Shown here: positions 1 through 64,000 of the stretch, piece after piece
How positions within the stretch are numbered: the stretch's first letter is position 1
Layout of the letters: every line of letters begins with the position of its first letter
Virus record (IMG/VR): IMGVR_UViG_3300025128_000015
Coordinates: 1 to 64,000 of that record
Length of the DNA: 64,000 nt
DNA from: a virus
Direction: 5' to 3' (one strand)
Notes under the pieces: generated by a model
Database searches by the model: none
Told to the model about the DNA's origin: nothing
Seen by the model: only the letters and a program-made list of their open reading frames with translations
Translations under genes and position numbers: made by a program

Positions 1-96
1 GATAACGATCGTCCGAATACCAAACGACGTCGAAGTCCAAAAGCTCCATCTGTTAAAAAGCTAAACGAAAGAGGCAATAAAAGGACAAAAAGGTAA
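1..96 (+). CDS. 3' end of an upstream gene (partial), basic C-terminal tail
   Basis: Frame 1 is open from base 1 to TAA at 94-96 (DNDRPNTKRRRSPKAPSVKKLNERGNKRTKR*), ending 5 nt before the next ATG. Confidence 0.55.
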   Translation, partial: DNDRPNTKRRRSPKAPSVKKLNERGNKRTKR

Positions 97-101
97 TATA
101 A

Positions 102-1313
102 ATGTCATTTTTTGATCAAAAACAAGAAGTATTTGATATTCAACTAACTTCTCATGGTAAAAAGCTCCTAGCTCAAGGAAAGCTAGAGCCGGAATACTAT
201 GCTTTTTTTGACGATGATATTCTATATGATGCAAGATATGCCGGATCTCCTGACGAAGAACAAAACTACATTGCTAAAAGAATCAAAGAAGAAACACCAA
301 GATTAAAAGCCCAGTATAATTTTACAAGATTGGAAAAGAAAGATCGATCTGGTACAAAATATGTTCTGAATGAAGATATTAATTTTGACCCTAAAGATAT
401 TTACGGCGCCGGCCCCGCTCAAGCTGGTAATGCCGGCTTTGGTCAACCTACCCTCCCAGATTTTGCGAATAATCTTAAAGATATAATCATTCAAGGCGCC
501 TTCGATTCAGGACTTATGGATCCAGATGAAGCGGGAATGAAAGAAGTCCTGGGCGCGACTTACAGCTACAATAACGAGTTTGGTATTCTCAACAATTACA
601 TTATGCAAGAACCAATCGGCACTTCAGACTTAGGCAATCAATTCGCTCCGTCTTGGGATATTCAGTGTTACAAAGGACAAATTAGCAGTTCTGTTGATCA
701 ACTATATACGAATCGATTTCCTACACTAAAAATACCTCAAATTGAATTAGAGTGTAATTTTACAACAATAGAAAAGTATGACATAAATTTTGCCAAAGAT
801 ATTACTCAAGCTATTGCAGTCAACAACGCATTAGCACACATCGGCGCCGACGAAATTATTCCTTTTGAAGATGGAACTTATTATGAGATAAAGCGGGGAG
901 AGATTATACTAGAAGTAGAAGAAGAAAACACTCCTTACGGAAAAGAAAATTATGAAGTGGAGGCTTTCTTTATTGAAGATTCAGGATTAGACACTGAAAG
1001 GTGGATTAAATTATATTTCAACCCGGAAACAAAAGCAGAAAATGCGTTTTATGCTCCCTATGTTAATGATGAGGAGAAAAATAAAGTTTATTTACCACCT
1101 CAAATGCAAAATATTTTGGCTAACTTTTTGGAAATTACTTTCGATGAAGAGATATCTGAAGATGTAATATGCAATACCAGAGCAGAATTAAAAGCAAAGA
1201 ACTTATTTTCTGATGTTGAAATTGATTGTGAAGATGTTGAAGTGTTCTCTGCAGATATCACCGATTCAGATATGTATGGAGATTCCCTTGAAGATACAGG
1301 AGAAATTTGTTAA
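102..1313 (+). CDS. Putative virion structural (baseplate/tail-associated) protein
   Basis: 403 aa. N-terminus (MSFFDQKQEVFDIQLTSHGKKLLAQG...YYAFFDDDILYD) resembles that of 8250..9245. Lies in the structural cluster and has an acidic C-terminus. Confidence 0.55.
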   Translation: MSFFDQKQEVFDIQLTSHGKKLLAQGKLEPEYYAFFDDDILYDARYAGSPDEEQNYIAKRIKEETPRLKAQYNFTRLEKKDRSGTKYVLNEDINFDPKDIYGAGPAQAGNAGFGQPTLPDFANNLKDIIIQGAFDSGLMDPDEAGMKEVLGATYSYNNEFGILNNYIMQEPIGTSDLGNQFAPSWDIQCYKGQISSSVDQLYTNRFPTLKIPQIELECNFTTIEKYDINFAKDITQAIAVNNALAHIGADEIIPFEDGTYYEIKRGEIILEVEEENTPYGKENYEVEAFFIEDSGLDTERWIKLYFNPETKAENAFYAPYVNDEEKNKVYLPPQMQNILANFLEITFDEEISEDVICNTRAELKAKNLFSDVEIDCEDVEVFSADITDSDMYGDSLEDTGEIC

Positions 1314-4300
1314 TGAGTGTTGTATCAAACAGATTTGGACAATCAGTACCTGACGTCTTTATAGGAAATATAAGAATATCAAAAGGTTACGATTCTATAA
1401 AAGAGAGAGAAAATACTCGAAACAATAGAGTCACATCTGATAGGAGAACATCAGATCGCTATAACGATGACTTTGCTTCTAGAGTTAAGAGTGAAGAAGG
1501 ATCACAATTAATTGTGACAGTAAATTTATATATTAAAGAAGTTGTAAATTCTTCACAGCGCACATCTTGGTTTAATGGCTCTAAAATAAGCAGAAACTTG
1601 AAAATAAGAGTAGTGCAAAGCTTGTCAGAAGCGTCCACAAAAGAAATATCTCGTGCACCAAGACAGATTTATCCTGGTGGCTACTATGATAATATCTCTA
1701 AAACTGCCGCCCATGGCGCCGCAACTAGTGTCATATGCAAAGATATACCTCTCAGACAATCAAACAACTTTAAAATAGAAAATTATTTGACAACAGAAAC
1801 AAGTGATTATAGAGTATATGATATACCATATCAGATAATTTTTTCTATTCCAAATGATGCGCCACCTCACTTAACTTATTTTGCAGCATGCTATTATGAT
1901 CCAAATCTTACAGATGGAAATCGTAACAAAAGAAGCAAGATACCTCTGCTTTCATCTTTAGGGAGATTGGCAGTAGAACAAGTTATAAATAAAAGCAAGA
2001 CTGTAAAGAAATCAAAATATTATTCTGTTGAAGATACTGGAGATGCTTATTTTGGACCAATATATCATAAAGAAACCGGTGAGGTTTTTACCGGACTAAC
2101 AAAAAATACTGGACCAAATCAAAAATTGACAACTAAAGTTGTTCCAAATACTAAAATTGTAGATTATAGAATATTTGAAAAATTTAAAAAAATTGATATT
2201 TCTTTTAAAGATTCTGATAAAGATGCGATCAAAGGATCCGGCAGATCTAAATCCAGAGTGACATATAATAAGAAAAATGATGATGTGTTTTTTACAGACT
2301 TATACCTAAATCGAAGTCAAAACGGTGTAGTTGATATGGTTTTTGGTATAAAAATGGAAAAGATATTTAAAAACTACAGTCATTATGCAAAGTTGTTTCA
2401 AAACACAGACAATACAATTGTAGAGACCATCCTTGGCGCCTCTAAATTAAGAAAATTAAAAATAATTCGACGTCGAATTGACAACAACAAAACTAGTTTT
2501 GATCGTCTCGGCGGAGTAAAAATGACACCATTTGTCAATCCAGATGGTTCATATGATGAACATGTCGTCGTCGAGGCTTATAACAGACCTCTTTTAACAA
2601 AAGCCGGCAGTGTAAATATCAAAGCAGCCACAGAAGACAGATATACAAAGGAAACCGTTGGCACAATCGATAAGATTGATTTATCTTTGGGTTCTGCAGG
2701 CGATGTTCTCTTTTTACATATAAGCGACAAGCAAATTGCAAAAGTTACAGAGGGTTTATATCAATATGGAATAGAATTAGATATTGAAGACAGAACACAA
2801 AATTATCTAATTTCAAGATTATATAATTTTGAGAGCGCTATTAGAAATTATGATTCATTAGCAAATATAGCAAGAATGGCCGGCTACAACAAATATAATA
2901 AAAAATATACACAAAGCTTTATGTCGGTTTCGTCGCTGGTTAATTACAGCTCATCCGGAACTACACCATGGTCAAACTTAATAACTCAGTTCGTTCAGAT
3001 TATAAATTTGTTCATGGGACATAATTCTGCACTCACCGAAGAATTACAATCTAATTTAGTCAAGTCTTTATTCTCTTTGTCGTGTCCAATAAGTAATAAT
3101 CCAAAAGATATGGATTTTGTTATGACAATGATGATAGAGTGCGCAAATAAGATCAGAAGTAAGATGTTGTTTGATTCTAACGACACGAGAAGGAAGAAGA
3201 TAACCTCTGCGCTGCGCACTAAAAAAGAAGCTTCTCCTAAAGTTGCAGTATTTAAGTTAGAAAAATACTTTGGCGCCTCGTATAAAGGATATAGTAATAA
3301 TAATGTAACATCTGAAATCGTCAATGCTTCACTGGATCCAAATTATGGTTATGATTATTTCGATTCTGGCGATAGTGCAGAAGGCTTAAAAACATATAAT
3401 GCTTCTGATATAATTAGCAGATCACAAATTGAAACATTAAGATACTATAAATCAGAAGATCCAGTCCTATCTTTAAAGGTTGATGATAAAATTTACACGA
3501 ATAGAGATTTTGCATTGTCAAATAAATATCAATTTTTTGCACCTTCATTTGTAACACTCGGTGGAAATAAAAAATTAAACCTAATTGATGAAGAAGAAAA
3601 CATTTTTAATAAAAATAAAAACACAGCGCTCTTATTAGATATCATGGGATATAATATGGCACAAGAAGAAAATAACATGACAGACTACACAAGATATTCT
3701 TATTCGCAAAAGCTAGATTCTTACTTGGCATTTAGAGATGTTAACAGAGTCGCTAATAGAGATCCGGTATCAGAATTAGAAAGTTCGAATTACAATATTG
3801 CCGATGATTATTTTGGCAAAACAACTAAAATTATTATTAATAAAGATATTACGGACGATCAAGAAATAATTGATATGATTAATCGTGAAAGCGACAGTAG
3901 ATATAAATCTAATAATAACAACCTTCGAAGAGGGGCGGAAACCCAAACGGCCGGAACTGGAATAATGTTATCACTTCTTGGCGCCCATTATTTAAAAACA
4001 CTAGAACCTGTTAAGGATTTAGAAAGATGGAACTTGAGAAATCCTGAAAATATCATCGCATTTCTTGATGGTGTCAAGAGTCAAGGAACTTCTAGATCTG
4101 AAGTTATTGACACTAGCAGAACATCTAAATTACAAAAAAGACAAGCAAATCAAGTATCTCCGGAAAAGCAAAGAATTATAAAAGAGATGCCAATGCAATT
4201 AAAGTCTTTATTGCATCAAGGTGTTGGTAATGTATCAAAAAACAATTTTAGAAGAGAGTTGTTTGCTTCCAATTTTAACCCCTTACAAGATGCTAGTAAG

Positions 4301-13543: not shown

Positions 13544-14344
13544 ATGAGTCAAATTGATGGAAACATGATAGTACGAGGAAACACAACTGTACAATATCAG
13601 AGCAGTATATATACTCCGTCTCCAATTGTATATCTTAAAATGAACGACGGGTCAGGCACAACAGCTAGCGACTCTTCTAGTGCCGGCAACAATCTGAATG
13701 GAACTTTAGGCGGTGACGCATCATGGACATCTACTAAATATAAAAATGGACCTTATGCTGTTGAATTTGACGGCACCGGAGATTATATTGATTTAGGGAC
13801 AAGCACCACGCTTAAACCTAATATTGCTATGACCATCGCGGCCTGGGTCTATGCAGATGATTTCGGTTCTGGCTTTGCTGCCATTCTTTCTTGTTGGCCT
13901 GGTTCCGGCGCCGAATCCAATTATTCTTTTTTTCTTGGCACAGGTGACAGCGGCGCCGGCAACGGAAAAGTAGATTGGCTTGTCATGAAACACCCCGCCG
14001 GCGGCTCTGGAACTTGGCTACAAACTGACAGTGCTGAACTCACAGCAGAACAATGGCATCATGTTGCTGTAACCTATTCTGGCGCAAATACTAGAATGCG
14101 TATATACATTGATGGTTCTTTGAAAGACGCTACTCATGTAAGGGAGGCGGTACCTTCTCAGATTAGCCAAGGAAGCCATAATGTTGGAATTGGGCTTAAT
14201 TATAACGGTTCTGCTTCATATCCTTATCCATGGGATGGTGCTATAGATGAATTATCGATGTGGGATGTTGAACTTACGGCAGACCAGATATCTTATCTAT
14301 ATGGCGGAGGGGTCGTTCCAGATGTCTCCAAAGGTATACCATAA
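13544..14344 (+). CDS. LamG/concanavalin A-like lectin domain protein (tandem paralog)
   Basis: Motifs YLKMNDGSG, FDGTGDYI, MTIAAW, WHHVAVTY, MRIYIDG, WDGAIDELSMWDVEL. Confidence 0.85.
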   Translation: MSQIDGNMIVRGNTTVQYQSSIYTPSPIVYLKMNDGSGTTASDSSSAGNNLNGTLGGDASWTSTKYKNGPYAVEFDGTGDYIDLGTSTTLKPNIAMTIAAWVYADDFGSGFAAILSCWPGSGAESNYSFFLGTGDSGAGNGKVDWLVMKHPAGGSGTWLQTDSAELTAEQWHHVAVTYSGANTRMRIYIDGSLKDATHVREAVPSQISQGSHNVGIGLNYNGSASYPYPWDGAIDELSMWDVELTADQISYLYGGGVVPDVSKGIP

Positions 14345-16386: not shown

Positions 16387-19300
16387 ATGCGATTTGCTCA
16401 TATAGCGGACACCCATATCCGCAACTTGAAATACCACAAAGAATATCGTGCAGTATTTCAGCAACTATATAGAAAACTTGAAGAATTAGATGTTGACTAC
16501 ATCGTTCATTGCGGCGACATAGCCCATACAAAGACACAAATAAGTCCAGAGTTCGTTGATTTGTGCAGTGATTTTTTTAGGAACTTGGCGAATATAGCTC
16601 CTACATACATAATACTGGGGAATCACGATGGCAACTTAAGAAATTCATATCGACAAGACGCGCTAACACCGATTGTTAATGCGTTAGATAATCCGAATTT
16701 AAAGTTGATTAAAAACTCCGGGGAGGTCAATCTCGATGATACTTTTACGCTTAATATCTTATCTGTGTTTGATGCTGACAATTGGATGGATCCATCCGAC
16801 AGCACCAAAATTAATATTGCTCTTTATCACGGCTCCATATCGAATTGTCAAACTGATGCTGGTTGGATTATGGAATATGGGGAAAACGACATATCTATTT
16901 TTAATAGATTCGATTATGCTTTTCTCGGAGACATTCATAAAACAAACCAACAACTTGATAAAGAAGGTCGAATTCGATATTGTGGCTCCACTGTACAACA
17001 GAATCACGGAGAAACCAACGATAAAGGCTTTCTCATATGGGACATCGAAGACAAAGAAACCTTCTCGGTAGAACATCACGTACTAGCCAATCCTAAGCCG
17101 TTTATAACGATTAATCTTACTCCGAAGGGTAGCATGCCAAAAGGCACGAAAATCCCGTCTAAGGCACGCTTACGGCTGGTTTCTGAGAATACCTTACCTC
17201 TGGATGTTATTCGTAAGGCAATTGATGTTGCAAAAGTTAGATTTAAACCAGAAGCAATTACATATTTATGTAGATCAGACGGCCGTTCAGGTTTAGATGG
17301 CTCTGTCAATTCTCTTATACAAGAAGATCTTCGTGACATCGCCGTACAAGAAAGTTTGATAGAGGAGTATATTAAAGACTATCAGGTTGATGAAGACGTC
17401 TTACAAAAGGTATATGATCTAAATAAAAGATACAAGACCCTCGTTGAAGAAGAGGAGGAGGTTAGCAGGAATGTTAACTGGAAACTAAAGAGAATCGAGT
17501 GGGACAATCTATTCAATTACGATGAAGGAAATAGTGTCGACTTTTATGATCTTAATGGGGTTATTGGTATTCTAGGAAAGAACTTTTCTGGTAAATCAAG
17601 CATCATTGACAGTCTTATGTACACTCTGTACAACACAACTTCAAAAAACAATCGCAAGAATTATAATGTGATTAATCAAAACAAAGAAGAATGTAGAGGG
17701 CTTGTACAAATTGACATTGGCACAAAGACATATTCAGTTGAAAGAACCAGCAAGAAGTATGTAAAAAAGCTGAAAGGCAAAGTTACTAACGAAGCTAAGA
17801 CTGATGTTGAATTTACTGTTTATGATAATGCCACTGGGATTGAACAAGAACTAAACGGCACTAGTAGAATGGAGACAGATAAAAACATTAGGAAGATATT
17901 TGGCACTGTCGAAGACTTTCTAATGACATCGATGGCTTCACAGCTTGGATCTCTAAGTTATATCAGCGAAGGTTCGACAAAGAGAAAAGAAATTCTTGCT
18001 AAGTTTCTTGATTTAGAAATATTTGACAAGAAGTTCAAGATGGCCAAAGATGATTCTTCTGATATTAAAGCCATGATTCGCAAAATGTCTAAACGCGATT
18101 TTGTGCAAGAGGCAAAAGATGCAAGAACAGAACTTGCAAGGAGTGAGACTGAAACGTCTCTCAAACAAAAAGAGTGCAAGAAGCTGGCTAATAAAATAAA
18201 TAAATTGAACTCTGATCTGGTTGAGTGCGATAAATTAATATCTTCAATACCAGCGCAAGTAATTGATATTACTATGGTTAATAGAAAATTGCAAGACTTA
18301 ACAAACAAGATAGACATTTTAAAGTCAGACAATGTTGGTCACGAACATGAACTAGAAGAAAAACAAAAATTCTATGACAAGATAGTTGCATTCATAGATG
18401 GGTTTGATGTTGATTCACTCAAGCAAAAACAAGAGCTTATTAAAGAACACCGAAACAGCATTGTCGCATTCGAGTCTGAAATAGAGACTGAAAGCACAAG
18501 ACTTAATCTTTTGAAGAAGAAGGTCAAGTTGCTCGATGAAGTTCCATGTGGAGAAGAGTTTTCTCATTGTAAATTTATTAAAGACGCATATACAGCAAAA
18601 AACAATATCGTCCCAGTACAAGCTGTCATTGATAAACTTGATTCAAAAGTCAATAAGATATCGAAAGGTATCGATAGTTTAAATCCAACTCAGCTTCAAG
18701 ATCATTATGAGAAGTTTCAAAAAATAACCAAGAAGAAAAACAATGCTCTCAATGAGATCAATGAGTTAAAACTTGAAATAGAAAAAACAAAGACTCATGT
18801 TTTAAGATTTGATCAAGAAAAGAGTATACTCGAAATTAAGAGAGAAGAATATGAAAACAATAAAGAAGCAATTGAAAATCTTGAAAGCTTGCTAGAACAA
18901 AAAGCAAATCATGAAGATGGGATAAAAAATCATAAAAAGAAATATGAAACATGTCAAAAAGAATCTATGGAGCTTTACAAGCAAAATGGCTTCTTGGAAC
19001 AAAAGCTAGAACAGATAAGTACAGACGAACAAGAGTATGAAGATCTTAATGCTGAGTTCACAGCTTATGATTTGTTTCAGAGATGTATGCACTCGAACGG
19101 TATATCATACAATATTATTAAGAAGCGCCTTCCAATAATCAATGAGGAGATATCAAAGATCTTAACAAACATCGTTGACTTTGATATCCTTTTTGATAAT
19201 GAAGATAATAAATTAGATATTTTGATTAAACACCCGCGCTTTGAACCTCGTCCAATTGAGATGGGTTCAGGTGCAGAAAAAACGATATGTGCAATGGCCA

Positions 19301-19536
19301 TTCGTTTGGCTCTTTTAAATGTTTCGACTCTACCAAAAGGCGATGTCTTTATCCTAGATGAACCTGGAACGGCTTTAGATGAAGATAATATGGAAGGATT
19401 TGTAAGGATTCTAGATATGATCAGTACACAATTTAAAACTGTTTTATTGATTTCACACCTAGATAGTCTTAAGGATACGGTCGAACAGCAAATTACAATT
19501 GATAAAATTGATGGCTATGCACATGTAAATCACTAA
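16387..19536 (+). CDS. Fused Mre11/SbcD nuclease - Rad50/SbcC ATPase (gp47-gp46-like)
   Basis: Phosphoesterase motifs ADTH, CGDIAH, GNHD, YHG, GDIH; then Walker A GKNFSGKS, long coiled coil with a central PCGEEFSHC, signature GSGAE, Walker B ILDEP and H-loop ISH, all in one 1049-aa frame. Confidence 0.9.
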   Translation: MRFAHIADTHIRNLKYHKEYRAVFQQLYRKLEELDVDYIVHCGDIAHTKTQISPEFVDLCSDFFRNLANIAPTYIILGNHDGNLRNSYRQDALTPIVNALDNPNLKLIKNSGEVNLDDTFTLNILSVFDADNWMDPSDSTKINIALYHGSISNCQTDAGWIMEYGENDISIFNRFDYAFLGDIHKTNQQLDKEGRIRYCGSTVQQNHGETNDKGFLIWDIEDKETFSVEHHVLANPKPFITINLTPKGSMPKGTKIPSKARLRLVSENTLPLDVIRKAIDVAKVRFKPEAITYLCRSDGRSGLDGSVNSLIQEDLRDIAVQESLIEEYIKDYQVDEDVLQKVYDLNKRYKTLVEEEEEVSRNVNWKLKRIEWDNLFNYDEGNSVDFYDLNGVIGILGKNFSGKSSIIDSLMYTLYNTTSKNNRKNYNVINQNKEECRGLVQIDIGTKTYSVERTSKKYVKKLKGKVTNEAKTDVEFTVYDNATGIEQELNGTSRMETDKNIRKIFGTVEDFLMTSMASQLGSLSYISEGSTKRKEILAKFLDLEIFDKKFKMAKDDSSDIKAMIRKMSKRDFVQEAKDARTELARSETETSLKQKECKKLANKINKLNSDLVECDKLISSIPAQVIDITMVNRKLQDLTNKIDILKSDNVGHEHELEEKQKFYDKIVAFIDGFDVDSLKQKQELIKEHRNSIVAFESEIETESTRLNLLKKKVKLLDEVPCGEEFSHCKFIKDAYTAKNNIVPVQAVIDKLDSKVNKISKGIDSLNPTQLQDHYEKFQKITKKKNNALNEINELKLEIEKTKTHVLRFDQEKSILEIKREEYENNKEAIENLESLLEQKANHEDGIKNHKKKYETCQKESMELYKQNGFLEQKLEQISTDEQEYEDLNAEFTAYDLFQRCMHSNGISYNIIKKRLPIINEEISKILTNIVDFDILFDNEDNKLDILIKHPRFEPRPIEMGSGAEKTICAMAIRLALLNVSTLPKGDVFILDEPGTALDEDNMEGFVRILDMISTQFKTVLLISHLDSLKDTVEQQITIDKIDGYAHVNH

Positions 19537-25615: not shown

Positions 25616-26178
25616 TGTCACAAGCAAACTTAGAAATTATACGTGGTGTCGCTCAGGCTGCTGCCGGTTGTTACGACGGCGCCCTTGACGATGAGGGAAA
25701 TCCAGTCAAGATTGGGCTCAAAAGAGAAGAGGGGAATCCTATCTTAAGCTCCAGAAACGTCGATGGATTCAAGGTTAAATTTCATGGAGATAAACTAATG
25801 TGTACCTATCAGTCAGATATTAAATTAAAAGACGTTTACAAAGGTAACTTAGAAAATGAAATGGAACAAACAATGAATGATATTGTTAGCCACCTTAAAA
25901 AGCAATACAAAAAAATCACCGGCAGTGCATTGACACTAACACCACAAGGTGAGGTTGATTGTTTGGTTCAGTCTACTTCAAGAGTTAGAGTATTTGTGAC
26001 AGCTAACAAATCCTACAAAGTAGGTGGATTAGACTCTGTTGGCTCTGTAGCAGACGATTCTAAAGACAGCCTTGACTCTTCGTTTAGAAGCTTTCTGGAC
26101 CAAGGTGGTTTTGGAAACGCTCCTAAAAACAAAAACCAAAAAGGTGGACAAGGTAAAGACAGTCAGAAGGACGGTTGA
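25615..26178 (+). CDS. Hypothetical protein immediately upstream of terminase
   Basis: 187 aa; TAATG coupling; SD GGAG. Confidence 0.65.
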   Translation: MSQANLEIIRGVAQAAAGCYDGALDDEGNPVKIGLKREEGNPILSSRNVDGFKVKFHGDKLMCTYQSDIKLKDVYKGNLENEMEQTMNDIVSHLKKQYKKITGSALTLTPQGEVDCLVQSTSRVRVFVTANKSYKVGGLDSVGSVADDSKDSLDSSFRSFLDQGGFGNAPKNKNQKGGQGKDSQKDG

Positions 26179-26183
26179 TACAC

Positions 26184-27767: not shown

Positions 27768-27773
27768 TAAAAA

Positions 27774-31132: not shown

Positions 31133-31144
31133 TAAGAGGCTACA

Positions 31145-32999: not shown

Positions 33000-33011
33000 G
33001 AGAGGTAAGAG

Positions 33012-33485: not shown

Positions 33486-33550
33486 AAAAGTTTTTTTAAT
33501 AATAAACAAACTAAATATTAATAACAGAGTGATTTTTTTGGAGAATTAGA

Positions 33551-42136: not shown

Positions 42137-45100
42137 ATGGCTGAGAAAAAGTTTAAATTCGTATCTCCAGGAATCTTTATCGATGAAATCGACGATTCTG
42201 GAGTACCAAATTCCGGTGGTGACATTGGTCCCGTCGTTGTTGGTCGATCGACCCGAGGGCCGGGAATGCGCCCCACAAGAATCGAATCTTTCTCTGAATT
42301 CGTTCAAGTTTTCGGTGCACCGACACCAGGAAACGACACAGAAAAAGATGTTTGGAGAAGCAACAACCCTGTTGGTCCGACATACGCTGCCTACGCTGCT
42401 CAGGCATGGCTTAAAAACAATACACCCCTTACGTTCGTTCGTTTGATGGGTGAGGAGCATCCTGCTTCTTCTACTTCAGGTAAGGCTGGTTTTAAAACAA
42501 CTAACACGTTTAATGAGACTAACTCTAGTAACGGCGGCGCCTATGGCCTTTTCTTGATTAATTCTGCATCTATTAATGGCGGAGACCAAGCGGGTCCCTT
42601 TAATCTTCCTACTGGAACCCTTGCTGCTGTTTGGTACATCCAACGCGGCGGAATGGCCCTCTCTGGAAACGTGCCAGTTGGCGCCCGCGGACACGATATA
42701 AGTGCCGTTGCAACCGTGGGACACTCAGCGGAAACAGCTTCAGCAGGTGGATTAATTCAGAATGCTGCTAGCAATACATGGACAGTTGTACTTAACGATG
42801 GCGCCTCAACAGACAGCACCAACGGAGTTATTTCCGGTAAAAAATACACTTTCAACTTTGATAGAAATAGCTCAAAGTTTATCCGAAACGTTTTTAATAC
42901 AAATCCGGTTTTAACTAATTCAAATATTGCTAGCACACAGCAGTATCACTGGCTTGGTGAAACATTCGAAGGATCCGTTGCGAAACATATTACAAGCGGA
43001 TCCACTGCAGGAACAGTTTTTGGATTCATCGCTGGATTAGGTACATCAACTACGGTAGGACATCACCACCGTCAGATGCCAGCCCAGCCTTCTAAGACTG
43101 GTTGGTTTATTTCGCAAGACCCGAGAGCCACAAATGCCAACTTTACTCCGGACGGACAAGCTTATGTAAAACAACTTTTTAGGTTTGTTTCTCTTGACGA
43201 TGGTGAGTGGGCTCAGAGCAATCTTAAGATTTCTATTGCAGACATTAAAGCACCAAGAAACAACTACGAAAAGTACGGTTCTTTCAGTGTTCTAATTCGT
43301 GATATTCGTGATGCTGACAATGCTCCAAGTATTGTTGAAAAATTCACAAATCTTAACTTAAACCCTTCTTCTGAAAACTTTATTGCAAAGAGAATCGGAG
43401 ATCAGCATCTAGTTTGGGATGATGAATTAAGTGTCCCAGGTGGAAAAGCCCGTTATAAACTACGTGGAGATTACCCGAACGTTTCTAGATTCTTTAGAGT
43501 AGAACTAAATGATGAAGTCAAGCTCGGATTAGACAACACAGAGCTACTTCCGTTTGGTGTCAGAGGACCATTACGCTACAAAGGCTGGTCTTTCAAAGGA
43601 CGTGACACACAGGCTTACCAAATTAATCAAAAAACTTCCATCGCTGCAGCACCCGCCGTAGCAATGTTTCAATTTTCTGATAACATCAACGATGAATCTA
43701 TATTTACATTTACAGATGCACTAGGGACGTCAGCAACGTTTGAAGTTGATCGCGCCTCCGCCGATGGGGCAGCGACCGCCGGCGCAGTCGCCCTGGCAGG
43801 CTATGCAAACAACGGAGAGGGACTTGCAACCGCGCTTAAAACTGCACTTGATGCATCTGCTCTACGAATTGATACAGTCCGTTCCACCGCAAAATTGACC
43901 CTTACAATGCAGGACGCCGGCGCCTCTGGTAATACACAGATCATAACTACTGCTGGCGTCGATTATAATGTTAATGAATCCCATCAAGGGGTCAAGCCTC
44001 TCGACGCAATGCCGACTCAATTTGAAGACGGCGCCGATGCTTTGGGACCAGTGCACACGGCTGCTACTTTATTCCTTGAAGCCGACCCGGCAGTAATACC
44101 TTATAAACATGGTGTACACAAGGGCGCAGGCGCCGAACAAGCTGCTGGAAAAAATCCAATCGCACCAGAAAGTATCCCTGCTCACAGTGCTTCCGCGGCC
44201 GGCTATTCGGCCAAGCCAATACAAGCACTATCTGGAGCATTTGTATTCCCAGCTATCTCCATGAGATCTTCTTCTTTAGACGGAAATCTTTCTGATAGAA
44301 CAGATGCTTACTTTGGCGCAACTTATAATCGATTAGGTGAAGCAACAAAATCTAATCTATTTGATGAGAGTTCGATCGATGTCGTCCGCGCTCTCGCAGC
44401 TAGTTATTCCAAGAACACTTGGGATCCCGCCGCCGAAGATACCGCAGTCGAGCATTCTTGGACGTTTACCTTGGATGACTTACAGAAAGCTTCTGGAACA
44501 GACTTCTTGTCGGCCATATATGTCTCTGGCTCTAGAGCAAGTGGAGAATCTTTTACAGCTGTCTCTCAATCCTATAGAGAGATTTTGAGCAATGGTTACG
44601 ATAGATTTACCGCCGCTCTTTATGGTGGATTCAATGGTCTCGATGTAACAGAAGCTGAGCCATTCGGAAACCATAGACTGGATGACAGCAGTAATGTAAA
44701 AGATAACTATGCTTACTACTCAGTTAAGAAAGCTATCGACACTGCTAGCGATCCAGAAGCTGTCGAAATGGACCTTCTCACTGTTCCAGGTGTAACCGAC
44801 TCTAGCCTCACAGAACACATGATTAATGTTTGTGAAGATAGAGGCGATGCTCTAGCAGTTATTGATATCGTCAACGACTACATTCCGCGTTACGAAAGTA
44901 ATTCTTCGGAAGCATCTAGAATCGGAACGGTAGTATCGGCTGTCAACACATTCAAGGATAGAGGGCTCAATTCCAGTTACGGATGTGCATTCTATCCATG
45001 GGTACAGGTAAGAGATTCTGCCTCTGAGACCGTCCCTGGTAAGCTTGTATGGCTTCCACCTTCGGTTGCAGCCCTTGGTACGTTCTCTAGTACTCAGCGC

Positions 45101-59847: not shown

Positions 59848-60891
59848 ATGGTTTTACAAAAAGTACAAAATAATAGCGATATTAAGCCTGGGTTTAACGG
59901 GCAAGGCTATATCAATTTAAAAGATTATGATAAATTAAAGCCCATAGCTTTTAAACAAGCAGAATATTCACATCATGTCTTTGTTGATCTCAATGACATT
60001 GATACCGAAGATTCTCAATTCTGGAACATGGGTATTCGAGGAGAGGGTACTGATGAAGACGAAAGGATTGAGTCTTTCAGGGTTTCTTTTGGCCGCCATG
60101 GATGGATGACCTCATTCTGGTCACCTAGTATGGATGTTGAAGGAAATTGGCTAGGAGGACGTGGAAGGCTCCGTGCAGCAAAGAAGAACGGGGAAAGATG
60201 GGTACCCGTCGCCGTATATCGTAGAGCTGACATGTCAAAAAGAAACACTATTACAAACGGATTAATCGAGAATAAACACTTACCCCAATACGCCTCTACA
60301 TTTAAAGATTATATTGGCGCCGGCGTAGGACTCATAGCTGCCGGAGAGCTAAAAGCTGATGAAAAGTCCGTCCAGGTCTGGCTAAGAGAGGATGTTGGGA
60401 TCGATGATATATATGACAACTCTCGTGGCGGCGCCGTAACTCAGCTGGTCAAAAAAATCCTTGCAAAAGCAGCAGAGGATAAGTCTCTTGTCAGGGTACA
60501 ATCAGACAAGGCATGGAAAGACTGGATCGAATCTAAATTGGATCTGAAGAAGAACGAGTATGTGTTAATGAATACGAAAGACAACACTCGCTCTGTGAGG
60601 CTTTGGTGCAATCAGATATTGCCGGCAGTCGCAAATAAAAAAGATCCTGTCAATATTATTTTTTACGCTTCTGATTATAGTCCAAAAGAGTTGAGGAAGA
60701 ACTTAAAAGATAGAATTACCGAGCTTGATACGTTCTATAAGCAGTCCTATCAGCTTGTCAATAGTGGTATCACAGGCATTAATATTGATACGCCAGAAAA
60801 CAAGCACTATAAGATTCTAGGCGCCCTCCCTCAGATTGAAAAAGATCATGACATAGAAGGTAATCGTCTAGTAAAGATCGAGGAATATTAA
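59848..60891 (+). CDS. Protein with ParB/sulfiredoxin-like N-terminal domain
   Basis: RIESFRVSFGRHGW...DVEGNWLGGRGRLRAAKKNGERWVPVAV fits the ParB-N pattern (G..R..AA...G...VPV). Confidence 0.55.
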   Translation: MVLQKVQNNSDIKPGFNGQGYINLKDYDKLKPIAFKQAEYSHHVFVDLNDIDTEDSQFWNMGIRGEGTDEDERIESFRVSFGRHGWMTSFWSPSMDVEGNWLGGRGRLRAAKKNGERWVPVAVYRRADMSKRNTITNGLIENKHLPQYASTFKDYIGAGVGLIAAGELKADEKSVQVWLREDVGIDDIYDNSRGGAVTQLVKKILAKAAEDKSLVRVQSDKAWKDWIESKLDLKKNEYVLMNTKDNTRSVRLWCNQILPAVANKKDPVNIIFYASDYSPKELRKNLKDRITELDTFYKQSYQLVNSGITGINIDTPENKHYKILGALPQIEKDHDIEGNRLVKIEEY

Positions 60892-61703
60892 TGAAGACTC
60901 CACTAAGATATCCAGGCGGTAAATCACGCGCCGTTAAAACGATATTGGAGTTTGTCCCTGAAGACTGTGGGGAGCTATGCTCCCCCTTTCTTGGGGGCGG
61001 ATCTGTTGAACTAGCACTGGCCGAGAAGGGCGTCAAGGTTCATGGATACGAAGGGTTTAAACCTGTAGTTTGGTTTTGGCAAGCTATCTTAAAAGATCCT
61101 GAAAAACTCGCAGATCTAGCGGATTCATTCAGAAAGAAAAAGGTTTATGAGCATCAAGGCAAAAAGCTCAAAGAACGCGGATTACCCGAAAGAACATTTC
61201 ACAAATTAAAGAGAGATTTAGTTCGTGCTCTTAGAAAAGGCGAAGGTTTTAGTTTTGAACTAGCAGCCAAATTCTATGCGCTCAATCGAAGTAGCTTCTC
61301 TGGAGCGACTCTATCAGGCGGATTTTCTGAAAGAGCGTCCTACGCACGCTTTACAGATAGTCGATTAGAATATATAAGGAATTTCAAAGCTCCGAATCTC
61401 ACTGTACAACACGCAGACTTTAAAAAGTCGATAAAGAATCATGATTGCTTGTTATATCTTGATCCTCCATACTTTCTTGGAGAAGCTCGCAGCAAGCTAT
61501 ATGGAAATCTTGGCGATATGCATAAATTCTTTCCTCATTTATCTTTATATTCTGAGTTAAAAGAGAAAAAGAATTGGATTTTATCTTATAATAATTGCGA
61601 TGAAATTCGACATCTTTATAGAGATTATGATATTCATGATGCATCTTGGACTTATTGCATGACAGCTAAGGAATCTTCAGAGATTATTATTACCAATTTA
61701 TAA
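60891..61703 (+). CDS. dam: D12-class (Dam-like) DNA adenine methyltransferase
   Basis: PLRYPGGKS, PFLGGGS, YLDPPY, ILSYN; TAATG coupling to the ParB-like gene. GATC specificity is not demonstrable from sequence. Confidence 0.88.
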   Translation: MKTPLRYPGGKSRAVKTILEFVPEDCGELCSPFLGGGSVELALAEKGVKVHGYEGFKPVVWFWQAILKDPEKLADLADSFRKKKVYEHQGKKLKERGLPERTFHKLKRDLVRALRKGEGFSFELAAKFYALNRSSFSGATLSGGFSERASYARFTDSRLEYIRNFKAPNLTVQHADFKKSIKNHDCLLYLDPPYFLGEARSKLYGNLGDMHKFFPHLSLYSELKEKKNWILSYNNCDEIRHLYRDYDIHDASWTYCMTAKESSEIIITNL

Positions 61704-61759: not shown

Positions 61760-62194
61760 ATGAGTTTGATTAAAGAGGGACACAATGTGAAGGTCCATTA
61801 TAAAGGCACATTAACTGACGGAACAGAGTTTGATAATTCGAAAAATAGAGGCACACCTCTAGAATTTAAGGTTGGTTCTGGTCAGGTTATTAAAGGGTTT
61901 GATAGTGCCGTAATGGGACTGGGACTTGGAGAGGTGAAAACCTTCACTTTGGACCCTACAGAGGCTTACGGAGAAGTAAATCCGGACGCCATTCAGGAGA
62001 CGCCTAAAGCTATGTTTCCACTTGGGTTTGATTTCCAAGTTGGATCAACAGTTCAAGGACAAGGACCGGGTGGACAACCTTTGGTCGCAAAAATTCTCTC
62101 TGAATCAAATGATTCGGTCGTTTTGGATCATAACCATCCTTTGGCTGGTGAAGAATTGACTTTTGAGATTGAAATTATTGAGTACGATGAATAG
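61760..62194 (+). CDS. slyD: FKBP-type peptidyl-prolyl isomerase (SlyD/SlpA-like, no His tail)
   Basis: VKVHYKGTLTDGTEFDNS, PLEFKVGSGQVIKGFD, AYGE, IF insertion domain, DHNHPLAGEELTFEI. Confidence 0.9.
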   Translation: MSLIKEGHNVKVHYKGTLTDGTEFDNSKNRGTPLEFKVGSGQVIKGFDSAVMGLGLGEVKTFTLDPTEAYGEVNPDAIQETPKAMFPLGFDFQVGSTVQGQGPGGQPLVAKILSESNDSVVLDHNHPLAGEELTFEIEIIEYDE

Positions 62195-62217: not shown

Positions 62218-63318
62218 ATGGCAAGGAAAGCTAAAAAATTAGGAAAACTTAGTCTGGACGATATGCGAAACCTTATTAATCGTAAGGCAGGATTAGAAGT
62301 CGCCCACGATCTAAGAGAAGAGAACCCAACTGAGGTAAAAGAGTGGATCTCCACTGGATCAACTTGGTTGGACAACATTGTTTGCAGAGGAAAAAAGGCC
62401 GGCATTCCAGTAGGTAAAATTACTGAGATTGCTGGTCTAGAAGGAGCGGGTAAATCGTGGATGGCTGCAGAGATTGCTGCCAATGCTCAAAAAATGGGTA
62501 TTGACGTTGTTTACTTCGATTCAGAGTCTGCTATCGATCCAAGTTTATTGTCTAGGTTAGGCATCGACTTGGAAAGATTTCTTTATGTGCAAGCATCAAG
62601 TGTTGAATTTGTTTTAGAGACGATCGAAGAACTATTAGGCTCTAACGATAGTCAAATGTTATTTATCTGGGACTCTCTGGCTCTTACGCCGGCCATAACA
62701 GATGTAGAAGGTGATTTCAACCCTCAGTCATCGATGGCTGTGAAGGCTCGAATCTTGGCGAAAGGGATGTCAAAACTTACTGTCCCTATCGCCAACACAC
62801 AGTCAACATTTTTGGTATTAAACCAGCTTAAAACAAATATCGCTTCAAATCCTGCGCAGAGAATGGAGATTATGACAACACCGTATGTCACTCCAGGTGG
62901 AAAAGCTATGCACTATGCATATTCACTGCGCATTTGGTTAACCGGCCGAAAAGCTAAGTCTTCGTTTATTATGAATGGAGACGACCGCGTAGGATACCAA
63001 GTACAAGTTAAACTAGAAAAATCACGCTTTGGAACATCAGGACGAAGGTGTCATTTTAAAATTATGTTTGCTGGTGAAGTTGGTATTCGTAATGAAGAGA
63101 GTTGGCTCGAAGCTTTAATAGGCTCAGAAAACCTAACTCAATCAGGTGCGTGGTACACACTACACTTTGAAGATGGGACATCACAAAAATTTCAATCAAA
63201 AAATTGGCTTGAAAAATTAAAAAGTAGTGAACAGTTCCGTGAAAGAGTGTTAGAGTTAATGCATGAAGAGATTGTTTTGAAATACGAAAGAAAGACAGAA
63301 CAATCTTCTTCTACATAA
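62218..63318 (+). CDS. recA: RecA/UvsX-like recombinase
   Basis: GIPVGKITEIAGLEGAGKS (Walker A), YFDSESA, IWDSLA (Walker B), LNQL, PGGKA. Confidence 0.93.
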   Translation: MARKAKKLGKLSLDDMRNLINRKAGLEVAHDLREENPTEVKEWISTGSTWLDNIVCRGKKAGIPVGKITEIAGLEGAGKSWMAAEIAANAQKMGIDVVYFDSESAIDPSLLSRLGIDLERFLYVQASSVEFVLETIEELLGSNDSQMLFIWDSLALTPAITDVEGDFNPQSSMAVKARILAKGMSKLTVPIANTQSTFLVLNQLKTNIASNPAQRMEIMTTPYVTPGGKAMHYAYSLRIWLTGRKAKSSFIMNGDDRVGYQVQVKLEKSRFGTSGRRCHFKIMFAGEVGIRNEESWLEALIGSENLTQSGAWYTLHFEDGTSQKFQSKNWLEKLKSSEQFRERVLELMHEEIVLKYERKTEQSSST

Positions 63319-63371: not shown

Positions 63372-63405
63372 AAACTAATTAATTAATACTATCTAGGAGA
63401 GAGTT

Positions 63406-63777
63406 ATGTCCAAAAGAATTAAGAAATTGATTGTGGAAGCAATATCGGATAAAGTTCAAGAAGCCGAATGCATGATCCACACATCAGCAAAAGTAAACCT
63501 TACAGATGTTTTGACATCTATCCGAGCAATCGCCGGCGTGACAATTGTAAATTTAGTTGGATCGTCGAATAGAGTTTCAGATGATAGAGATGCGTCTTAT
63601 TTGAAAATTAAATTTATTCCAAATGTAACCTCTGCAGATGCATACATGAGAAACCTTGTTTCTTACGTGAGAAATCTGCCAAGCGTATTTACATTTGAAA
63701 TTAAAAAAGTTGAAAACCTAAAACAAAAGCTAGCCAGAAGAAGGCAGCAAAAAGATTTAGTAAAAATTGATATATAG
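63406..63777 (+). CDS. Hypothetical protein with its own late-type motif
   Basis: 123 aa; SD AGGAG; ACTAATTAAT at 63374. Confidence 0.65.
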   Translation: MSKRIKKLIVEAISDKVQEAECMIHTSAKVNLTDVLTSIRAIAGVTIVNLVGSSNRVSDDRDASYLKIKFIPNVTSADAYMRNLVSYVRNLPSVFTFEIKKVENLKQKLARRRQQKDLVKIDI

Positions 63778-63786
63778 AGGAAAACA

Positions 63787-64000
63787 TTGAAAACTAAGAG
63801 ATTATTATTAATCGATCAGCTAAACTTATTCTTTAGATCGTATATTGTCGATCCATCGTTATCAACAAATGGACAACCAATTGGCGGATTAAAGGGAGTA
63901 ATTAAATCTTTACAAAAGATTATCAGAGAGTCAAAGCCAGACCAAGTTATTATCTGTTGGGATGGACAAGGAGGCTCAACCCGCCGCAAAATCTTAAATA
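63787..64000 (+). CDS. 5'-3' exonuclease / RNase H (FEN-like), partial
   Basis: TTG start, SD GAGG; LLLIDQLNLFFRSY...NGQPIGG...IICWDG.GGS..R runs off the window end. Confidence 0.85.
   Translation, partial: MKTKRLLLIDQLNLFFRSYIVDPSLSTNGQPIGGLKGVIKSLQKIIRESKPDQVIICWDGQGGSTRRKILN

What the first reader, a model, noticed from the sequence alone, without database searches (positions are those of the whole stretch)
1..64000. GGCGCC and GCCGGC (GSCGSC) strongly over-represented in an AT-rich phage: HIP-like iterated palindromes
Seen: my manual tally, which may be off by a few, is about 37 GGCGCC (e.g. 405, 495, 843, 1715, 2435, 3272, 3980, 6517, 9809, 11210, 13907, 13952, 15027, 22322, 28471, 37121, 42536, 44030, 48897, 60316, 61728) and about 34 GCCGGC. 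At roughly 37% GC only about 3 of each are expected from base composition. GGCGCA, GGCGCT and GGTGCC looked much rarer even though these genes otherwise favour GCT/GCA and GGT/GGA codons. GGGCCC, CCCGGG and GCGCGC are nearly absent, while GCCGCC/GGCGGC also looks elevated. Established: phages usually avoid 6-bp palindromes because of restriction; cyanobacterial HIP1 and alternate HIPs are enriched palindromes linked to cognate methyltransferases. Inference: a methylation-coupled repair or mutational process, or a protein-binding or packaging signal, is creating GSCGSC sites in this phage.
Basis: partly seen in the sequence, partly recalled or inferred. Interest (0 to 1): 0.72.

Follow-up and report, generated by a model that had tools for sequence, protein, structure and literature searches.

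The report
Iterated GC-rich palindromes in marine phage
An uncultured 190-kb marine T4-like phage carries the six-letter palindromes GGCGCC, GCCGGC and CGGCCG about four times more often than its proteins and codon habits require, while other palindromes are wiped out completely; this points to an unidentified process acting on the DNA itself, unlike the usual phage habit of only avoiding such words.

Summary
The counts are exact: 37 GGCGCC and 34 GCCGGC in the window, 79 and 89 in the whole 189,594-bp phage genome. The proposed refutation fails. In a within-gene shuffle that keeps every amino acid and each gene's codon usage, GCCGGC (84 observed, 20 expected) and GGCGCC (77, 20) are the two most over-represented of all 4096 hexamers, and CGGCCG (43, 12) is fourth.

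- **Frame:** the excess appears in every reading frame that can hold the words.
- **Controls:** the non-palindromic twins GGCGGC and GCCGCC show no excess, so the motif is "perfect palindrome", not GSCGSC.
- **Distribution:** the excess is uniform across core and accessory genes, at about 1.1 sites per kb with Poisson spacing.
- **Relatives:** the nearest relative (80% identical) has the same excess but mostly at other positions. Other relatives have zero sites.
- **Other palindromes:** other GC-rich palindromes and 8-12-bp palindromes are also enriched. Eight hexamer palindromes are absent from all 190 kb.
- **Phage enzymes:** the phage has only a Dam-type adenine methylase; the Pfam models for C5 and N4/N6 methylases and Vsr found nothing.

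My best reading is a DNA-level, symmetry-dependent mutation or repair bias with restriction-driven purging on top. The mechanism is unresolved. The closest known case is the alternate HIPs of cyanobacteria. Earlier notes of this scan report the same pattern in several other marine T4-like phages.

The parts
1..64000 (.). Field of iterated GC-only palindromes: 37 GGCGCC, 34 GCCGGC and 15 CGGCCG sites, about 1.3 per kb, nearly all inside + strand genes
   Evidence: Positions listed. Frames: GGCGCC 33 in frame 0 and 3 in frame 1; GCCGGC 27 in frame 0 and 4 in frame 2; CGGCCG 11 in frame 1 and 4 in frame 2. Enrichment against codon-aware nulls.
404..418 (.). Composite site: overlapping GGCGCC (405) and GCCGGC (408) in a 15-nt G/C-only run
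   Evidence: Overlapping sites are themselves in excess: GGCGCC frame-0 overlapped 10 vs 0.5 expected, GCCGGC 15 vs 1.1.
13950..13960 (.). Composite site GGCGCC (13952) plus GCCGGC (13955)
43915..43924 (.). Composite site GCCGGC (43916) plus GGCGCC (43919), inside the tail-sheath gene
60316..60325 (.). Composite site GGCGCC (60316) plus GCCGGC (60319)
60891..61703 (+). The only recognisable DNA methyltransferase of the phage: D12-class N6-adenine (Dam-like) enzyme, which cannot methylate words made only of G and C
   Evidence: PF02086, E 5.6e-26; phrog_56. PF00145, PF01555 and PF03852 found nothing in the 190-kb genome.
16387..19536 (+). SbcCD-like (T4 gp46/47-type) nuclease gene, part of the recombination machinery. 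Listed only as context for the strand-switch hypothesis.
   Evidence: phrog_77 and phrog_100.
62218..63318 (+). RecA/UvsX-like recombinase gene. Context only.
   Evidence: PF00154, E 7e-37.

Best explanation
The excess is a genome-wide DNA-level signature. It does not come from protein coding, and it is not a set of fixed functional sites. In this phage lineage some directional process raises the equilibrium frequency of perfect, gap-free palindromes, and the effect grows with their G+C content. Restriction pressure from hosts separately purges particular palindromes to zero. GGCGCC, GCCGGC and CGGCCG are the GC-only palindromes that this strain is currently not purging.

Shown:
- The enrichment is specific to palindromes and independent of reading frame.
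- It is uniform along the genome at about one site per kb.
- It is lineage-specific.
- Individual sites turn over quickly.

Inferred:
- Many different palindromes and also 8-12-mers are raised. Six of the eight GC-only palindromes are raised at least 2.2-fold in the nearest relative. So the force recognises self-complementarity in general, not one word.
- The mechanism I favour, at roughly 0.4, is a symmetric mutation or repair bias intrinsic to T4-type recombination-dependent replication. An example is a short strand switch between the two nascent strands, which turns near-palindromes into perfect ones and is stabilised by G:C pairs.
- Protein-level selection then keeps mainly the synonymous outcomes, which is why Gly-Ala and Ala-Gly codon pairs dominate.
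For: **Codon-aware nulls**
- GCCGGC 84 vs 20.4, GGCGCC 77 vs 19.9, CGGCCG 43 vs 12.0. These rank 1, 2 and 4 among 4096 hexamers.
- The excess is in all feasible frames. Isolated off-frame sites number 81 vs 26.6, reached by 0 of 300 shuffles.

**Palindrome specificity**
- Among Gly-Ala pairs GGC-GCC is 64 vs 14.3, and among Ala-Gly pairs GCC-GGC is 66 vs 14.9. GGC-GGC is 23 vs 17.6 and GCC-GCC 20 vs 14.5.
- GC-only non-palindromes that share no 5-mer with a palindrome are at 1.14x.
- GGCG outside the palindrome is not enriched.

**Generic character**
- Palindromes that are not purged are at 1.53x with 4 G/C and 3.3x with 6 G/C.
- The log2 ratio rises 0.21 per G/C in G000 and 0.225 in G001, with p below 1e-6.
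- Within degenerate site families only the palindromic members rise.
- With 3-nt GC arms, only spacer 0 is strongly in excess (232 vs 88, z 16); spacers 2 and 4 (z about 5) fit nested 8- and 10-mers, while 1 and 3 show none and 5 to 12 at most a weak excess (z 0 to 3.2).
- Longer palindromes are also raised: 8-mers 1.27x, 10-mers 1.54x, 12-mers 1.5x and longer ones 1.7x. G001, G002 and G004 show this too.
- In G001, GGCGCC, CCGCGG, GGGCCC, GCCGGC, GCGCGC and CGGCCG are all at 2.2-4.7x.

**No positional function**
- Only 8 of 27 GGCGCC and 4 of 23 GCCGGC sites are shared with G001, similar to control words.
- Turnover against a 98%-identical strain is ordinary.
- The enrichment is 3.2-4.4x in core and accessory genes alike and 2.8-6.2x in every 20-kb bin. 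Spacing has a CV of 1.08-1.16, and the longest gap equals the Poisson expectation.

**Phage enzymes**
- No C5 or N4/N6 methylase or Vsr was detected.
Against: - No enzyme or event was observed, so the strand-switch mechanism is an inference.
- GGCGCC and CGGCCG do not extend to 8-mers more often than their flanking base frequencies predict (24 vs 22.3 and 10 vs 10.7). This looks more like recognition of a 6-bp word.
- Arms of 3 nt are very short for a strand switch.
- Against the 98%-identical strain, palindrome differences are almost all single substitutions (24 of 26). There is therefore no sign of multi-nucleotide events.
- Relatives G004 and G005 carry the same T4-type replication module but show little or no GC-only hexamer excess. 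An intrinsic process would have to vary in strength between lineages.
- Synonymous T-variants (GGTGCC, GGCGCT, GCTGGC, GCCGGT) are about 0.5x while A-variants are about 1x. That fits a T-to-C repair bias better than a strand switch.
Confidence: 0.4

Rival explanations
1. A methylation-coupled repair ratchet of the HIP or very-short-patch (VSP) type, imposed by host enzymes. Host cytosine methylases for GGCGCC, GCCGGC and CGGCCG, together with a T:G-mismatch or methyl-directed repair activity, convert near-cognate words into the palindrome, or protect its cytosines from C-to-T decay, while the phage replicates.
For: - The same hexamers are the 'alternate HIPs' of Calothrix PCC 7103 (GGCGCC) and Oscillatoria PCC 10802 (rCCGGy, including GCCGGC). 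Each is tied there to a cognate methylase, at a density near 1 per kb (PMC4390886). The density here is 1.1 per kb.
- Synonymous C-to-T neighbours are depleted about twofold while A-neighbours are not.
- Summed over all frames, transition neighbours are at 0.88-0.95 and transversion neighbours at 1.13-1.17.
- The trait is lineage-specific. Relatives purge the same words, so systems that read these words are common in the host pool.
Against: - At least six GC-only palindromes, several 4-GC palindromes and 8-12-mers are enriched. That would need many separate specificities.
- The Pfam models for C5 and N4/N6 methylases and Vsr match nothing in the phage. The host is unknown, so nothing on the host side could be tested.
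- Neighbours of CGGCCG (CGGCCA, TGGCCG) are enriched, not depleted.
- 5mC sites normally decay faster, not slower.
Confidence: 0.25
2. The palindromes are selected as functional sites. They could be targets of a dimeric phage or host DNA-binding protein involved in genome compaction, replication, recombination or anti-defence. The number per genome would matter, not the exact positions.
For: - Density is nearly constant, at 0.8-1.3 per kb, whatever the local GC3. Enrichment is therefore highest in the most AT-rich genes, 5.7x against 3.1x.
- The same excess is maintained in G000 and G001 even though individual sites turn over.
Against: - Spacing is Poisson, with no deficit of long gaps.
- Sites are no better conserved than control words.
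- Many unrelated palindromes are raised in proportion to their GC content.
- Close relatives thrive with zero copies.
- No flanking consensus exists beyond the hexamer.
Confidence: 0.15
3. A coding artefact. The excess would reflect Gly-Ala and Ala-Gly dipeptides, ordinary codon usage, translational codon-pair preference or local GC-rich patches.
For: - 33 of 37 GGCGCC and 27 of 34 GCCGGC sites in the window lie in frame 0, as GGC-GCC and GCC-GGC.
- GC-only words in general are raised against base composition.
Against: - Shuffles that keep amino acids and codon usage still give a fourfold excess.
- Off-frame sites are equally enriched.
- GGC-GGC, GCC-GCC and the clean GC-only non-palindromes are not enriched.
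- Shuffling within 30-codon blocks, which keeps local composition, still gives z of 8-9.
- Relatives with similar proteins have zero sites.
Confidence: 0.03

Closest known systems
Alternate highly iterated palindromes (HIPs) of cyanobacteria: GGCGCC in Calothrix PCC 7103, rCCGGy/GCCGGC in Oscillatoria PCC 10802, GCsGC in one Cyanothece strain (written both PCC 7822 and PCC 7122 in the paper) (Elhai 2015, PMC4390886)
   Same: - The same hexamer words.
- They lie in coding DNA regardless of frame.
- Density is about one per kb.
- The trait is lineage-specific.
- The cause is unexplained and is proposed to be a by-product of repair, not a site function.
   Different: - This is a virus, not a cell.
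- The excess is about 4x over a codon-aware null and about 10x over base composition. In Calothrix the reported observed/expected ratios are about 15.5 for the hexamer and 53 for the top 8-mer.
- Several palindromes are raised at once, along with longer palindromes.
- No cognate methylase is detected in the genome that carries the words.
- Close relatives have purged the same words to zero.
HIP1 (GCGATCGC) of cyanobacteria (PMC5861425, abstract seen)
   Same: A hyper-abundant GC-rich palindrome found throughout genes.
   Different: - HIP1 is an octamer that is 15- to 300-fold over-represented, and it is recognised by two methylases.
- A later paper's abstract (PMC13756078) describes it as evolutionarily conserved and quasi-periodic in its distribution.
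- The sites here are not conserved and their spacing is Poisson.
VSP-repair footprint in E. coli, in which Dcm/Vsr alters the abundance of CCWGG and related words (Bhagwat & McClelland 1992; Merkl et al. 1992). I saw these only as references in PMC4687349; the mechanism is from my own knowledge.
   Same: A methylase target becomes enriched and its T-containing neighbours become depleted through biased T:G repair. The synonymous T-variants here are about 0.5x.
   Different: - The effect here is larger and spans many words.
- The neighbour signature is weak overall and absent for CGGCCG.
- No vsr or dcm-type gene is found in the phage.
Restriction-site avoidance in phages (Rusinov et al. 2018, PMC6286503; 2015, PMC4687349)
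   Same: The same genome shows classic avoidance. GAGCTC, CTCGAG, AGGCCT, CACGTG, CCTAGG, ACGCGT, CCCGGG and CGCGCG are absent from 190 kb.
   Different: - The finding has the opposite sign.
- In PMC4687349 over-representation of Type II sites was rare. There were 47 cases, mostly CCGG in Helicobacter at about 1.4-1.5x, and they were left unexplained.
Quasipalindrome template-switch mutagenesis. The papers retrieved cover E. coli, yeast and great apes (PMC7202029, PMC8604942, PMC7954356); that it was first described in phage T4 is from my own knowledge. Enrichment of perfect inverted repeats in bacteria is reported in PMC5941160.
   Same: A mutational route that makes imperfect inverted repeats perfect. 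This is consistent with the general excess of gap-free palindromes of 6-14 bp.
   Different: - Known cases involve longer arms, usually with a loop.
- The strongest signal here is a 6-bp gap-free word.
- No multi-nucleotide events were seen in the close-strain comparison.

Membership tests
Highly iterated palindromes (HIP1 / alternate HIPs) | A GC-rich palindromic word far more frequent than composition and coding predict | tested here: met
   About 4x over the codon-aware null and about 10x over base composition. The two words rank first and second of 4096 hexamers. The magnitude is lower than in cyanobacteria.
Highly iterated palindromes (HIP1 / alternate HIPs) | Occurs regardless of reading frame | tested here: met
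   All feasible frames are enriched. Isolated off-frame sites number 81 vs 26.6.
Highly iterated palindromes (HIP1 / alternate HIPs) | A cognate cytosine methyltransferase encoded in the same genome | tested here: not met
   PF00145 and PF01555 find nothing in the 190-kb genome. Only a D12 adenine methylase is present. The host genome is unknown.
Highly iterated palindromes (HIP1 / alternate HIPs) | Density saturating near one site per kb | tested here: met
   211 sites in 189.6 kb, mean spacing 894 bp, 0.8-1.3 per kb in all gene classes.
Highly iterated palindromes (HIP1 / alternate HIPs) | Sites conserved beyond neutral expectation and quasi-periodic (reported for HIP1) | tested here: not met
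   17-30% of sites are shared with G001, similar to control words. Spacing has a CV of 1.08-1.16.
VSP-type (Dcm/Vsr) repair footprint | Deamination (C-to-T) neighbours of the word are depleted | tested here: inconclusive
   Frame-0 T-variants are about 0.5x. Summed over all frames, transition neighbours are only 0.88-0.95, and for CGGCCG they are 1.5x.
VSP-type (Dcm/Vsr) repair footprint | vsr and C5-methylase genes are present | tested here: not met
   PF03852 and PF00145 are absent from the phage. The host could not be tested.
Translational codon-pair bias | The preference is confined to in-frame codon pairs | tested here: not met
   The excess is equal in other frames, and there is no excess for GGC-GGC or GCC-GCC.
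Functional iterated DNA signals (uptake, Chi-like or packaging sites, protein-binding arrays) | Positional conservation, an extended consensus or non-random spacing | tested here: not met
   No flank consensus, Poisson spacing and turnover between relatives.
Restriction-site avoidance | Palindromic words far below expectation | tested here: met
   This holds for other words only. Eight hexamers are at 0 and two more at 1-2 in 190 kb, against 6-22 expected. It does not apply to the words of the finding.

The most novel reading that the evidence does not exclude
A family of marine T4-like phages carries an unknown symmetry-reading DNA process, a viral counterpart of the cyanobacterial HIP ratchet. 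It writes GC-rich perfect palindromes into the genome at about one per kb. Sister lineages that have the excess, lack it, or have purged the words provide natural on/off comparisons. These could finally identify the enzyme behind highly iterated palindromes.
Probability: 0.3. Interest if true: 0.75.

Novelty: new variant of a known kind. Interest (0 to 1): 0.6.

Why it matters
Phages are textbook examples of palindrome avoidance. A phage that is strongly enriched in some restriction-type palindromes, while other palindromes are erased, shows that a second force shapes phage DNA. That force acts in the opposite direction.

The enriched words are the same as the unexplained alternate HIPs of cyanobacteria. 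If one process underlies both, this phage family offers small genomes with enriched, neutral and purged lineages side by side. That makes the long-open question of how HIPs arise testable by comparative genomics and methylome sequencing.

There is also a practical point. Such word profiles could confound k-mer-based host prediction for marine phages, or could inform it.

Tried and rejected
- **Karlin-type inclusion-exclusion ratio**. It gave 0.7-0.9 for the three words, because in an AT-rich genome their gapped sub-words are made up mostly of the hexamer itself. I judged it uninformative here. The maximal-order Markov ratios are 1.37, 1.62 and 0.96.
- **Host identification.** A scan of bacterial genomes with the phage's B12-radical-SAM protein gave only two distant hits, in a Woesearchaeota MAG and a deltaproteobacterial MAG, and no host lead. 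No tRNA genes are in the window. Megablast against cultured phages found nothing. The nearest cultured capsids are below 52% identity.
- **Gene-content comparison.** I looked for genes shared by the enriched genomes G000 and G001 (and G002) but absent from G003-G005. This yielded a glycan-modification cluster and small ORFs of unknown function, with no nuclease, methylase or repair candidate.
- **Strain-level polarisation with public runs.** The phage is present in marine metagenomes of 15 studies. Three of the four runs I laid were identical to the window. For the fourth, only 40 of 344 differences were listed, which is too few for any gain/loss test at the sites.
- **Multi-nucleotide origin of sites.** G000 against G001 showed more two-difference than one-difference states at sites (28:13, against 29:35 for non-site pairs). 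At 55% third-position identity this comparison is saturated. The 98%-identical strain L001 shows single changes in 24 of 26 cases, so I do not use it as evidence.
- **Hairpin origin.** Rejected, because inverted repeats with spacers of 3 nt or more show at most a weak excess (z 0 to 4.7, against 16 at spacer 0), and the spacer-4 peak fits nested 10-mers.
- **Explanation by lower-order symmetric biases.** Rejected, because GGCG, GCGC and CCGG are not raised outside the perfect hexamers.
- **Literature.** A full-text search for GGCGCC, GCCGGC and phage found no relevant paper.

Full report
**What the window is.** The window is the first 64 kb of a single-contig IMG/VR virus record of 189,594 bp, rated 100% complete. 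In an alignment with its nearest relative the two ends of the record join, so the genome is complete and circularly permuted. It is a T4-like myovirus. It has a portal (phrog_213), a major head protein (phrog_138), a tail sheath, long-tail-fibre-like proteins and a gp46/47-type nuclease, plus a RecA/UvsX-like recombinase. Almost all genes lie on the + strand. Its capsid is less than 52% identical to any cultured phage. The nearest are Flavobacterium phage immuto, Microcystis phage Mel-JY01 and Rhodothermus phage RM378. Near-identical DNA occurs in marine metagenomes of 15 studies. The host is unknown.

- GGCGCC 37 and GCCGGC 34.
- GGCGCA 15, GGCGCT 9, GGTGCC 4.
- GGGCCC 1, CCCGGG 0, GCGCGC 0.

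The GC content is 39.0%, so base composition predicts 3.5 of each word. In the whole genome the counts are 79 and 89, and the sites occur in every 20-kb segment.

**The proposed refutation fails.** I called genes by a greedy long-ORF rule (205 genes, 95% coverage). I then shuffled synonymous codons while keeping every amino acid. The shuffles ran genome-wide, within each gene, and within blocks of 60 or 30 codons. With 300 within-gene shuffles:
- GCCGGC is 84 observed vs 20.4 expected (z 15.7).
- GGCGCC is 77 vs 19.9 (z 14.3).
- These are the two most over-represented of all 4096 hexamers. CGGCCG (43 vs 12.0, z 9.0) is fourth.

At the dipeptide level, 64 of 294 Gly-Ala pairs are GGC-GCC (14.3 expected) and 66 of 307 Ala-Gly pairs are GCC-GGC (14.9 expected). 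Under a whole-genome 4th-order Markov model GCCGGC is still first (89 vs 55) and GGCGCC seventh (79 vs 57.7). Six of the top eight words under that model are palindromes.

**The signal is in the DNA, not in translation.** The excess appears in every frame that can hold the words:

| Word | Frame | Observed | Expected |
|---|---|---|---|
| GGCGCC | 1 | 6 | 1.9 |
| GGCGCC | 2 | 7 | 2.0 |
| GCCGGC | 2 | 18 | 3.9 |
| CGGCCG | 1 | 28 | 8.3 |
| CGGCCG | 2 | 15 | 3.2 |

Counting only isolated sites, to exclude overlap with frame-0 sites, gives 81 vs 26.6. None of 300 shuffles reached that value.

**The unit is the perfect palindrome, not GSCGSC.**
- The non-palindromic twins have the same trinucleotide content but are at 28 vs 23.8 (GGCGGC) and 26 vs 21.0 (GCCGCC).
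- GC-only non-palindromes that share no 5-mer with a palindrome are at 1.14x.
- GGCG, GCGC and CCGG are not raised outside the perfect hexamers.
- Within degenerate site families (RGCGCY, RCCGGY, GTMKAC, WCCGGW) only the palindromic members rise.
- With 3-nt GC-only arms, spacer 0 gives 232 vs 88 (z 16). Spacers 2 and 4 (z about 5) fit nested 8- and 10-mers. Odd spacers 1 and 3 give nothing, and spacers 5 to 12 give at most a weak excess (z 0 to 3.2). I therefore reject a hairpin origin.
- There is no flanking consensus.
- GGCGCC and CGGCCG do not extend to 8-mers more often than their flank frequencies predict.

**A broader pattern.** Hexamer palindromes in this genome fall into two groups.
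- Eight are absent from all 190 kb: GAGCTC, CTCGAG, AGGCCT, CACGTG, CCTAGG, ACGCGT, CCCGGG and CGCGCG. Two more, CGTACG and GGGCCC, have 1-2 copies. Expected counts are 6-22.
- Among the rest, many are raised, and more so the more G/C they hold. GTCGAC is 2.4x, GCTAGC 2.1x, GTGCAC and GACGTC about 2x, TCCGGA and ACCGGT 1.8x.
- Pooled, palindromes that are not purged are at 1.11x with 2 G/C, 1.53x with 4 G/C and 3.3x with 6 G/C. The slope is 0.21 log2 units per G/C (p 6e-7).
- Longer gap-free palindromes are also in excess: 8-mers 1.27x, 10-mers 1.54x, 12-mers 1.5x and longer ones 1.7x.

**Relatives.** A portal-based scan returned 80 related loci, and I fetched five large relatives whole. The same shuffle test gave the following:

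| Genome | Relation to G000 | Result |
|---|---|---|
| G001 | nearest, about 80% nt identity over 84 kb | GGCGCC 43 vs 9.2, GCCGGC 31 vs 10.4; CCGCGG 3.9x, GGGCCC 3.7x, GCGCGC 2.6x, CGGCCG 2.2x; same GC slope (0.225) |
| G002 | more distant | weaker version: GCCGGC 2.5x, GGCGCC 1.8x |
| G004, G005 | complete genomes | little or no GC-only excess; each has purged some of these words |
| G003 | more distant | has purged about 25 different palindromes |

Of the 80 portal-region loci, 29 have no GGCGCC and no GCCGGC at all. The trait is therefore lineage-specific, and the same words are restriction targets elsewhere in the family. G001 is enriched in GGGCCC, which G000 has purged to 2 copies. This shows the two forces acting on one word within a short evolutionary distance.

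**Sites are not positionally conserved.**
- Only 8 of 27 alignable GGCGCC sites and 4 of 23 GCCGGC sites are shared with G001. Control hexamers share 12-42%.
- At conserved Gly-Ala and Ala-Gly dipeptides the shared counts (6 and 3) are close to the independence expectation (3.8 and 1.9).
- Against a 98%-identical strain (L001, 8 kb, 158 differences), palindromes are gained and lost at the ordinary rate and by single substitutions.
- Enrichment is the same in genes conserved across the family and in accessory genes (3.2-4.4x), and in every 20-kb bin (2.8-6.2x).
- Density is 0.8-1.3 per kb whatever the GC3. Spacing has a CV of 1.08-1.16, and the longest gap (5.2 kb) equals the Poisson expectation.

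This argues against fixed binding or packaging sites. It fits either a mutational equilibrium or selection on site number only.

**Methylation and repair genes.** Pfam searches of the whole genome found no C5 methylase (PF00145), no N4/N6 methylase (PF01555) and no Vsr (PF03852). Each search recovered its family in several of the 14 control genomes. The only DNA methylase is a D12-class adenine enzyme at 60891-61703. It cannot act on words made only of G and C. The genes shared by the enriched genomes but absent from G003-G005 are a glycan-modification cluster and small unknown ORFs.

**Neighbour signature.** A VSP-like process predicts depletion of C-to-T neighbours.
- In frame 0 the T-variants (GGT-GCC 9 vs 19.1, GGC-GCT 16 vs 25.2, GCT-GGC 15 vs 26.3, GCC-GGT 9 vs 19.9) are about half of expectation, while the A-variants are near 1.
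- Summed over all frames the effect is weak: transitions 0.88-0.95 against transversions 1.13-1.17.
- For CGGCCG the transition neighbours CGGCCA and TGGCCG are enriched instead.

I rate this test inconclusive.

**Interpretation.** Four things are firmly supported. The excess is a DNA-level force that depends on symmetry. It acts genome-wide. It varies between lineages. It coexists with strong restriction-driven purging.

The mechanism is not established. I favour, at about 0.4, a generic process that makes or favours palindromes and is intrinsic to the phage lineage. An example is a short strand switch during T4-type replication and recombination. My reasons are that many unrelated palindromes and longer palindromes rise together, in proportion to G:C content, and only without a gap.

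The main rival, at about 0.25, is a HIP- or VSP-type methylation-coupled repair ratchet imposed by host enzymes. It fits the identity of the words with the cyanobacterial alternate HIPs, the density of about one per kb (PMC4390886) and the depletion of T-variants. However, it would need many separate specificities.

Selection for site number is possible, at about 0.15. A coding artefact is excluded.

**Comparison with what is known.** The closest precedent is Elhai's alternate HIPs. The features met are the word identity, frame independence and density. The features not met are a cognate methylase in the same genome, site conservation and periodicity. I therefore describe this as HIP-like, not as a member of that class.

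Over-representation of Type II sites is reported as rare and unexplained in prokaryotes (PMC4687349). I found no paper describing it for these words in phages.

Earlier notes of this scan report the same pattern in several other marine T4-like phages and in one rumen-type phage, with similar conclusions. I treated them as leads only. All tests reported here were run independently on this genome.

Noticed in passing
whole genome (window 1-64000 and beyond): Eight hexamer palindromes are completely absent from 190 kb: GAGCTC, CTCGAG, AGGCCT, CACGTG, CCTAGG, ACGCGT, CCCGGG and CGCGCG. CGTACG has 1 copy and GGGCCC 2, against 6-22 expected. The purged set differs in each relative. G003 lacks about 25 palindromes, and GAGCTC and CTCGAG are absent in all six genomes.
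   Followed up: partly
whole genome: The 5-mer AGGCC/GGCCT is depleted on both strands beyond the palindrome AGGCCT. Examples: CAGGCC 2 vs 22, GGCCTG 6 vs 13, GGCCTA 2 vs 15, TAGGCC 2 vs 12, AGGCCC 3 vs 16, AAGGCC 12 vs 36. This suggests a restriction target shorter or less symmetric than AGGCCT.
   Followed up: partly
whole genome, coding strand: Shine-Dalgarno-like words inside genes are about half of expectation on the coding strand only: AGGAGG 30 vs 69, AAGGAG 41 vs 88, TAAGGA 29 vs 79. Their reverse complements are normal. This is a translation-level avoidance.
   Followed up: partly
window 1249-63632 (37 CTGCAG sites): CTGCAG is as frequent as GGCGCC in the window (37 copies), but 36 of the 37 are in one frame (xCT GCA Gxx). 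Against the codon-aware null it is only 1.5x (73 vs 47.6 genome-wide). It extends to 8-mer palindromes more often than expected, 30 vs 19.4.
   Followed up: partly
G000 149457-155951 (L122:9457-15951), outside the window: A glycan-type modification cluster shared with the nearest relative but absent from G003-G005. It holds two glycosyltransferases, a B12-binding radical-SAM enzyme, a LicD-family transferase, a sulfotransferase and an FkbM-family methyltransferase. A HAD hydrolase lies nearby.
   Followed up: partly
G000 164609-176470, outside the window: A single ORF of 3953 aa, shared with G001 at 66% identity and without a match in G002-G005.
   Followed up: no
L001 against window 25722-33742: A 98.0%-identical strain carries CCTAGG (at window 26100) and GCGCGC (at window 26376), where this genome has one-letter variants. 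CCTAGG is absent from the whole 190 kb here, so purging may differ between very close strains.
   Followed up: no
window 33012-33485: A 157-aa ORF with no Pfam or PHROG match is 98% identical in protein to its G001 counterpart, well above the identities of about 59-94% seen for the other lineage-restricted genes listed. It is absent from G002-G005.
   Followed up: no
window 61760-62194: A phage-encoded FKBP-type peptidyl-prolyl isomerase (PF00254, E 8e-23) lies between the Dam-like methylase and the RecA/UvsX-like gene.
   Followed up: no
L124 (CAZNUV010000001.1, 159,530-bp contig): The best genomic match of the phage's B12-radical-SAM protein (37% identity) lies on a 159.5-kb contig binned as a Woesearchaeota MAG. 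The size raises the question of whether that contig is a mis-binned phage. I did not check this.
   Followed up: no
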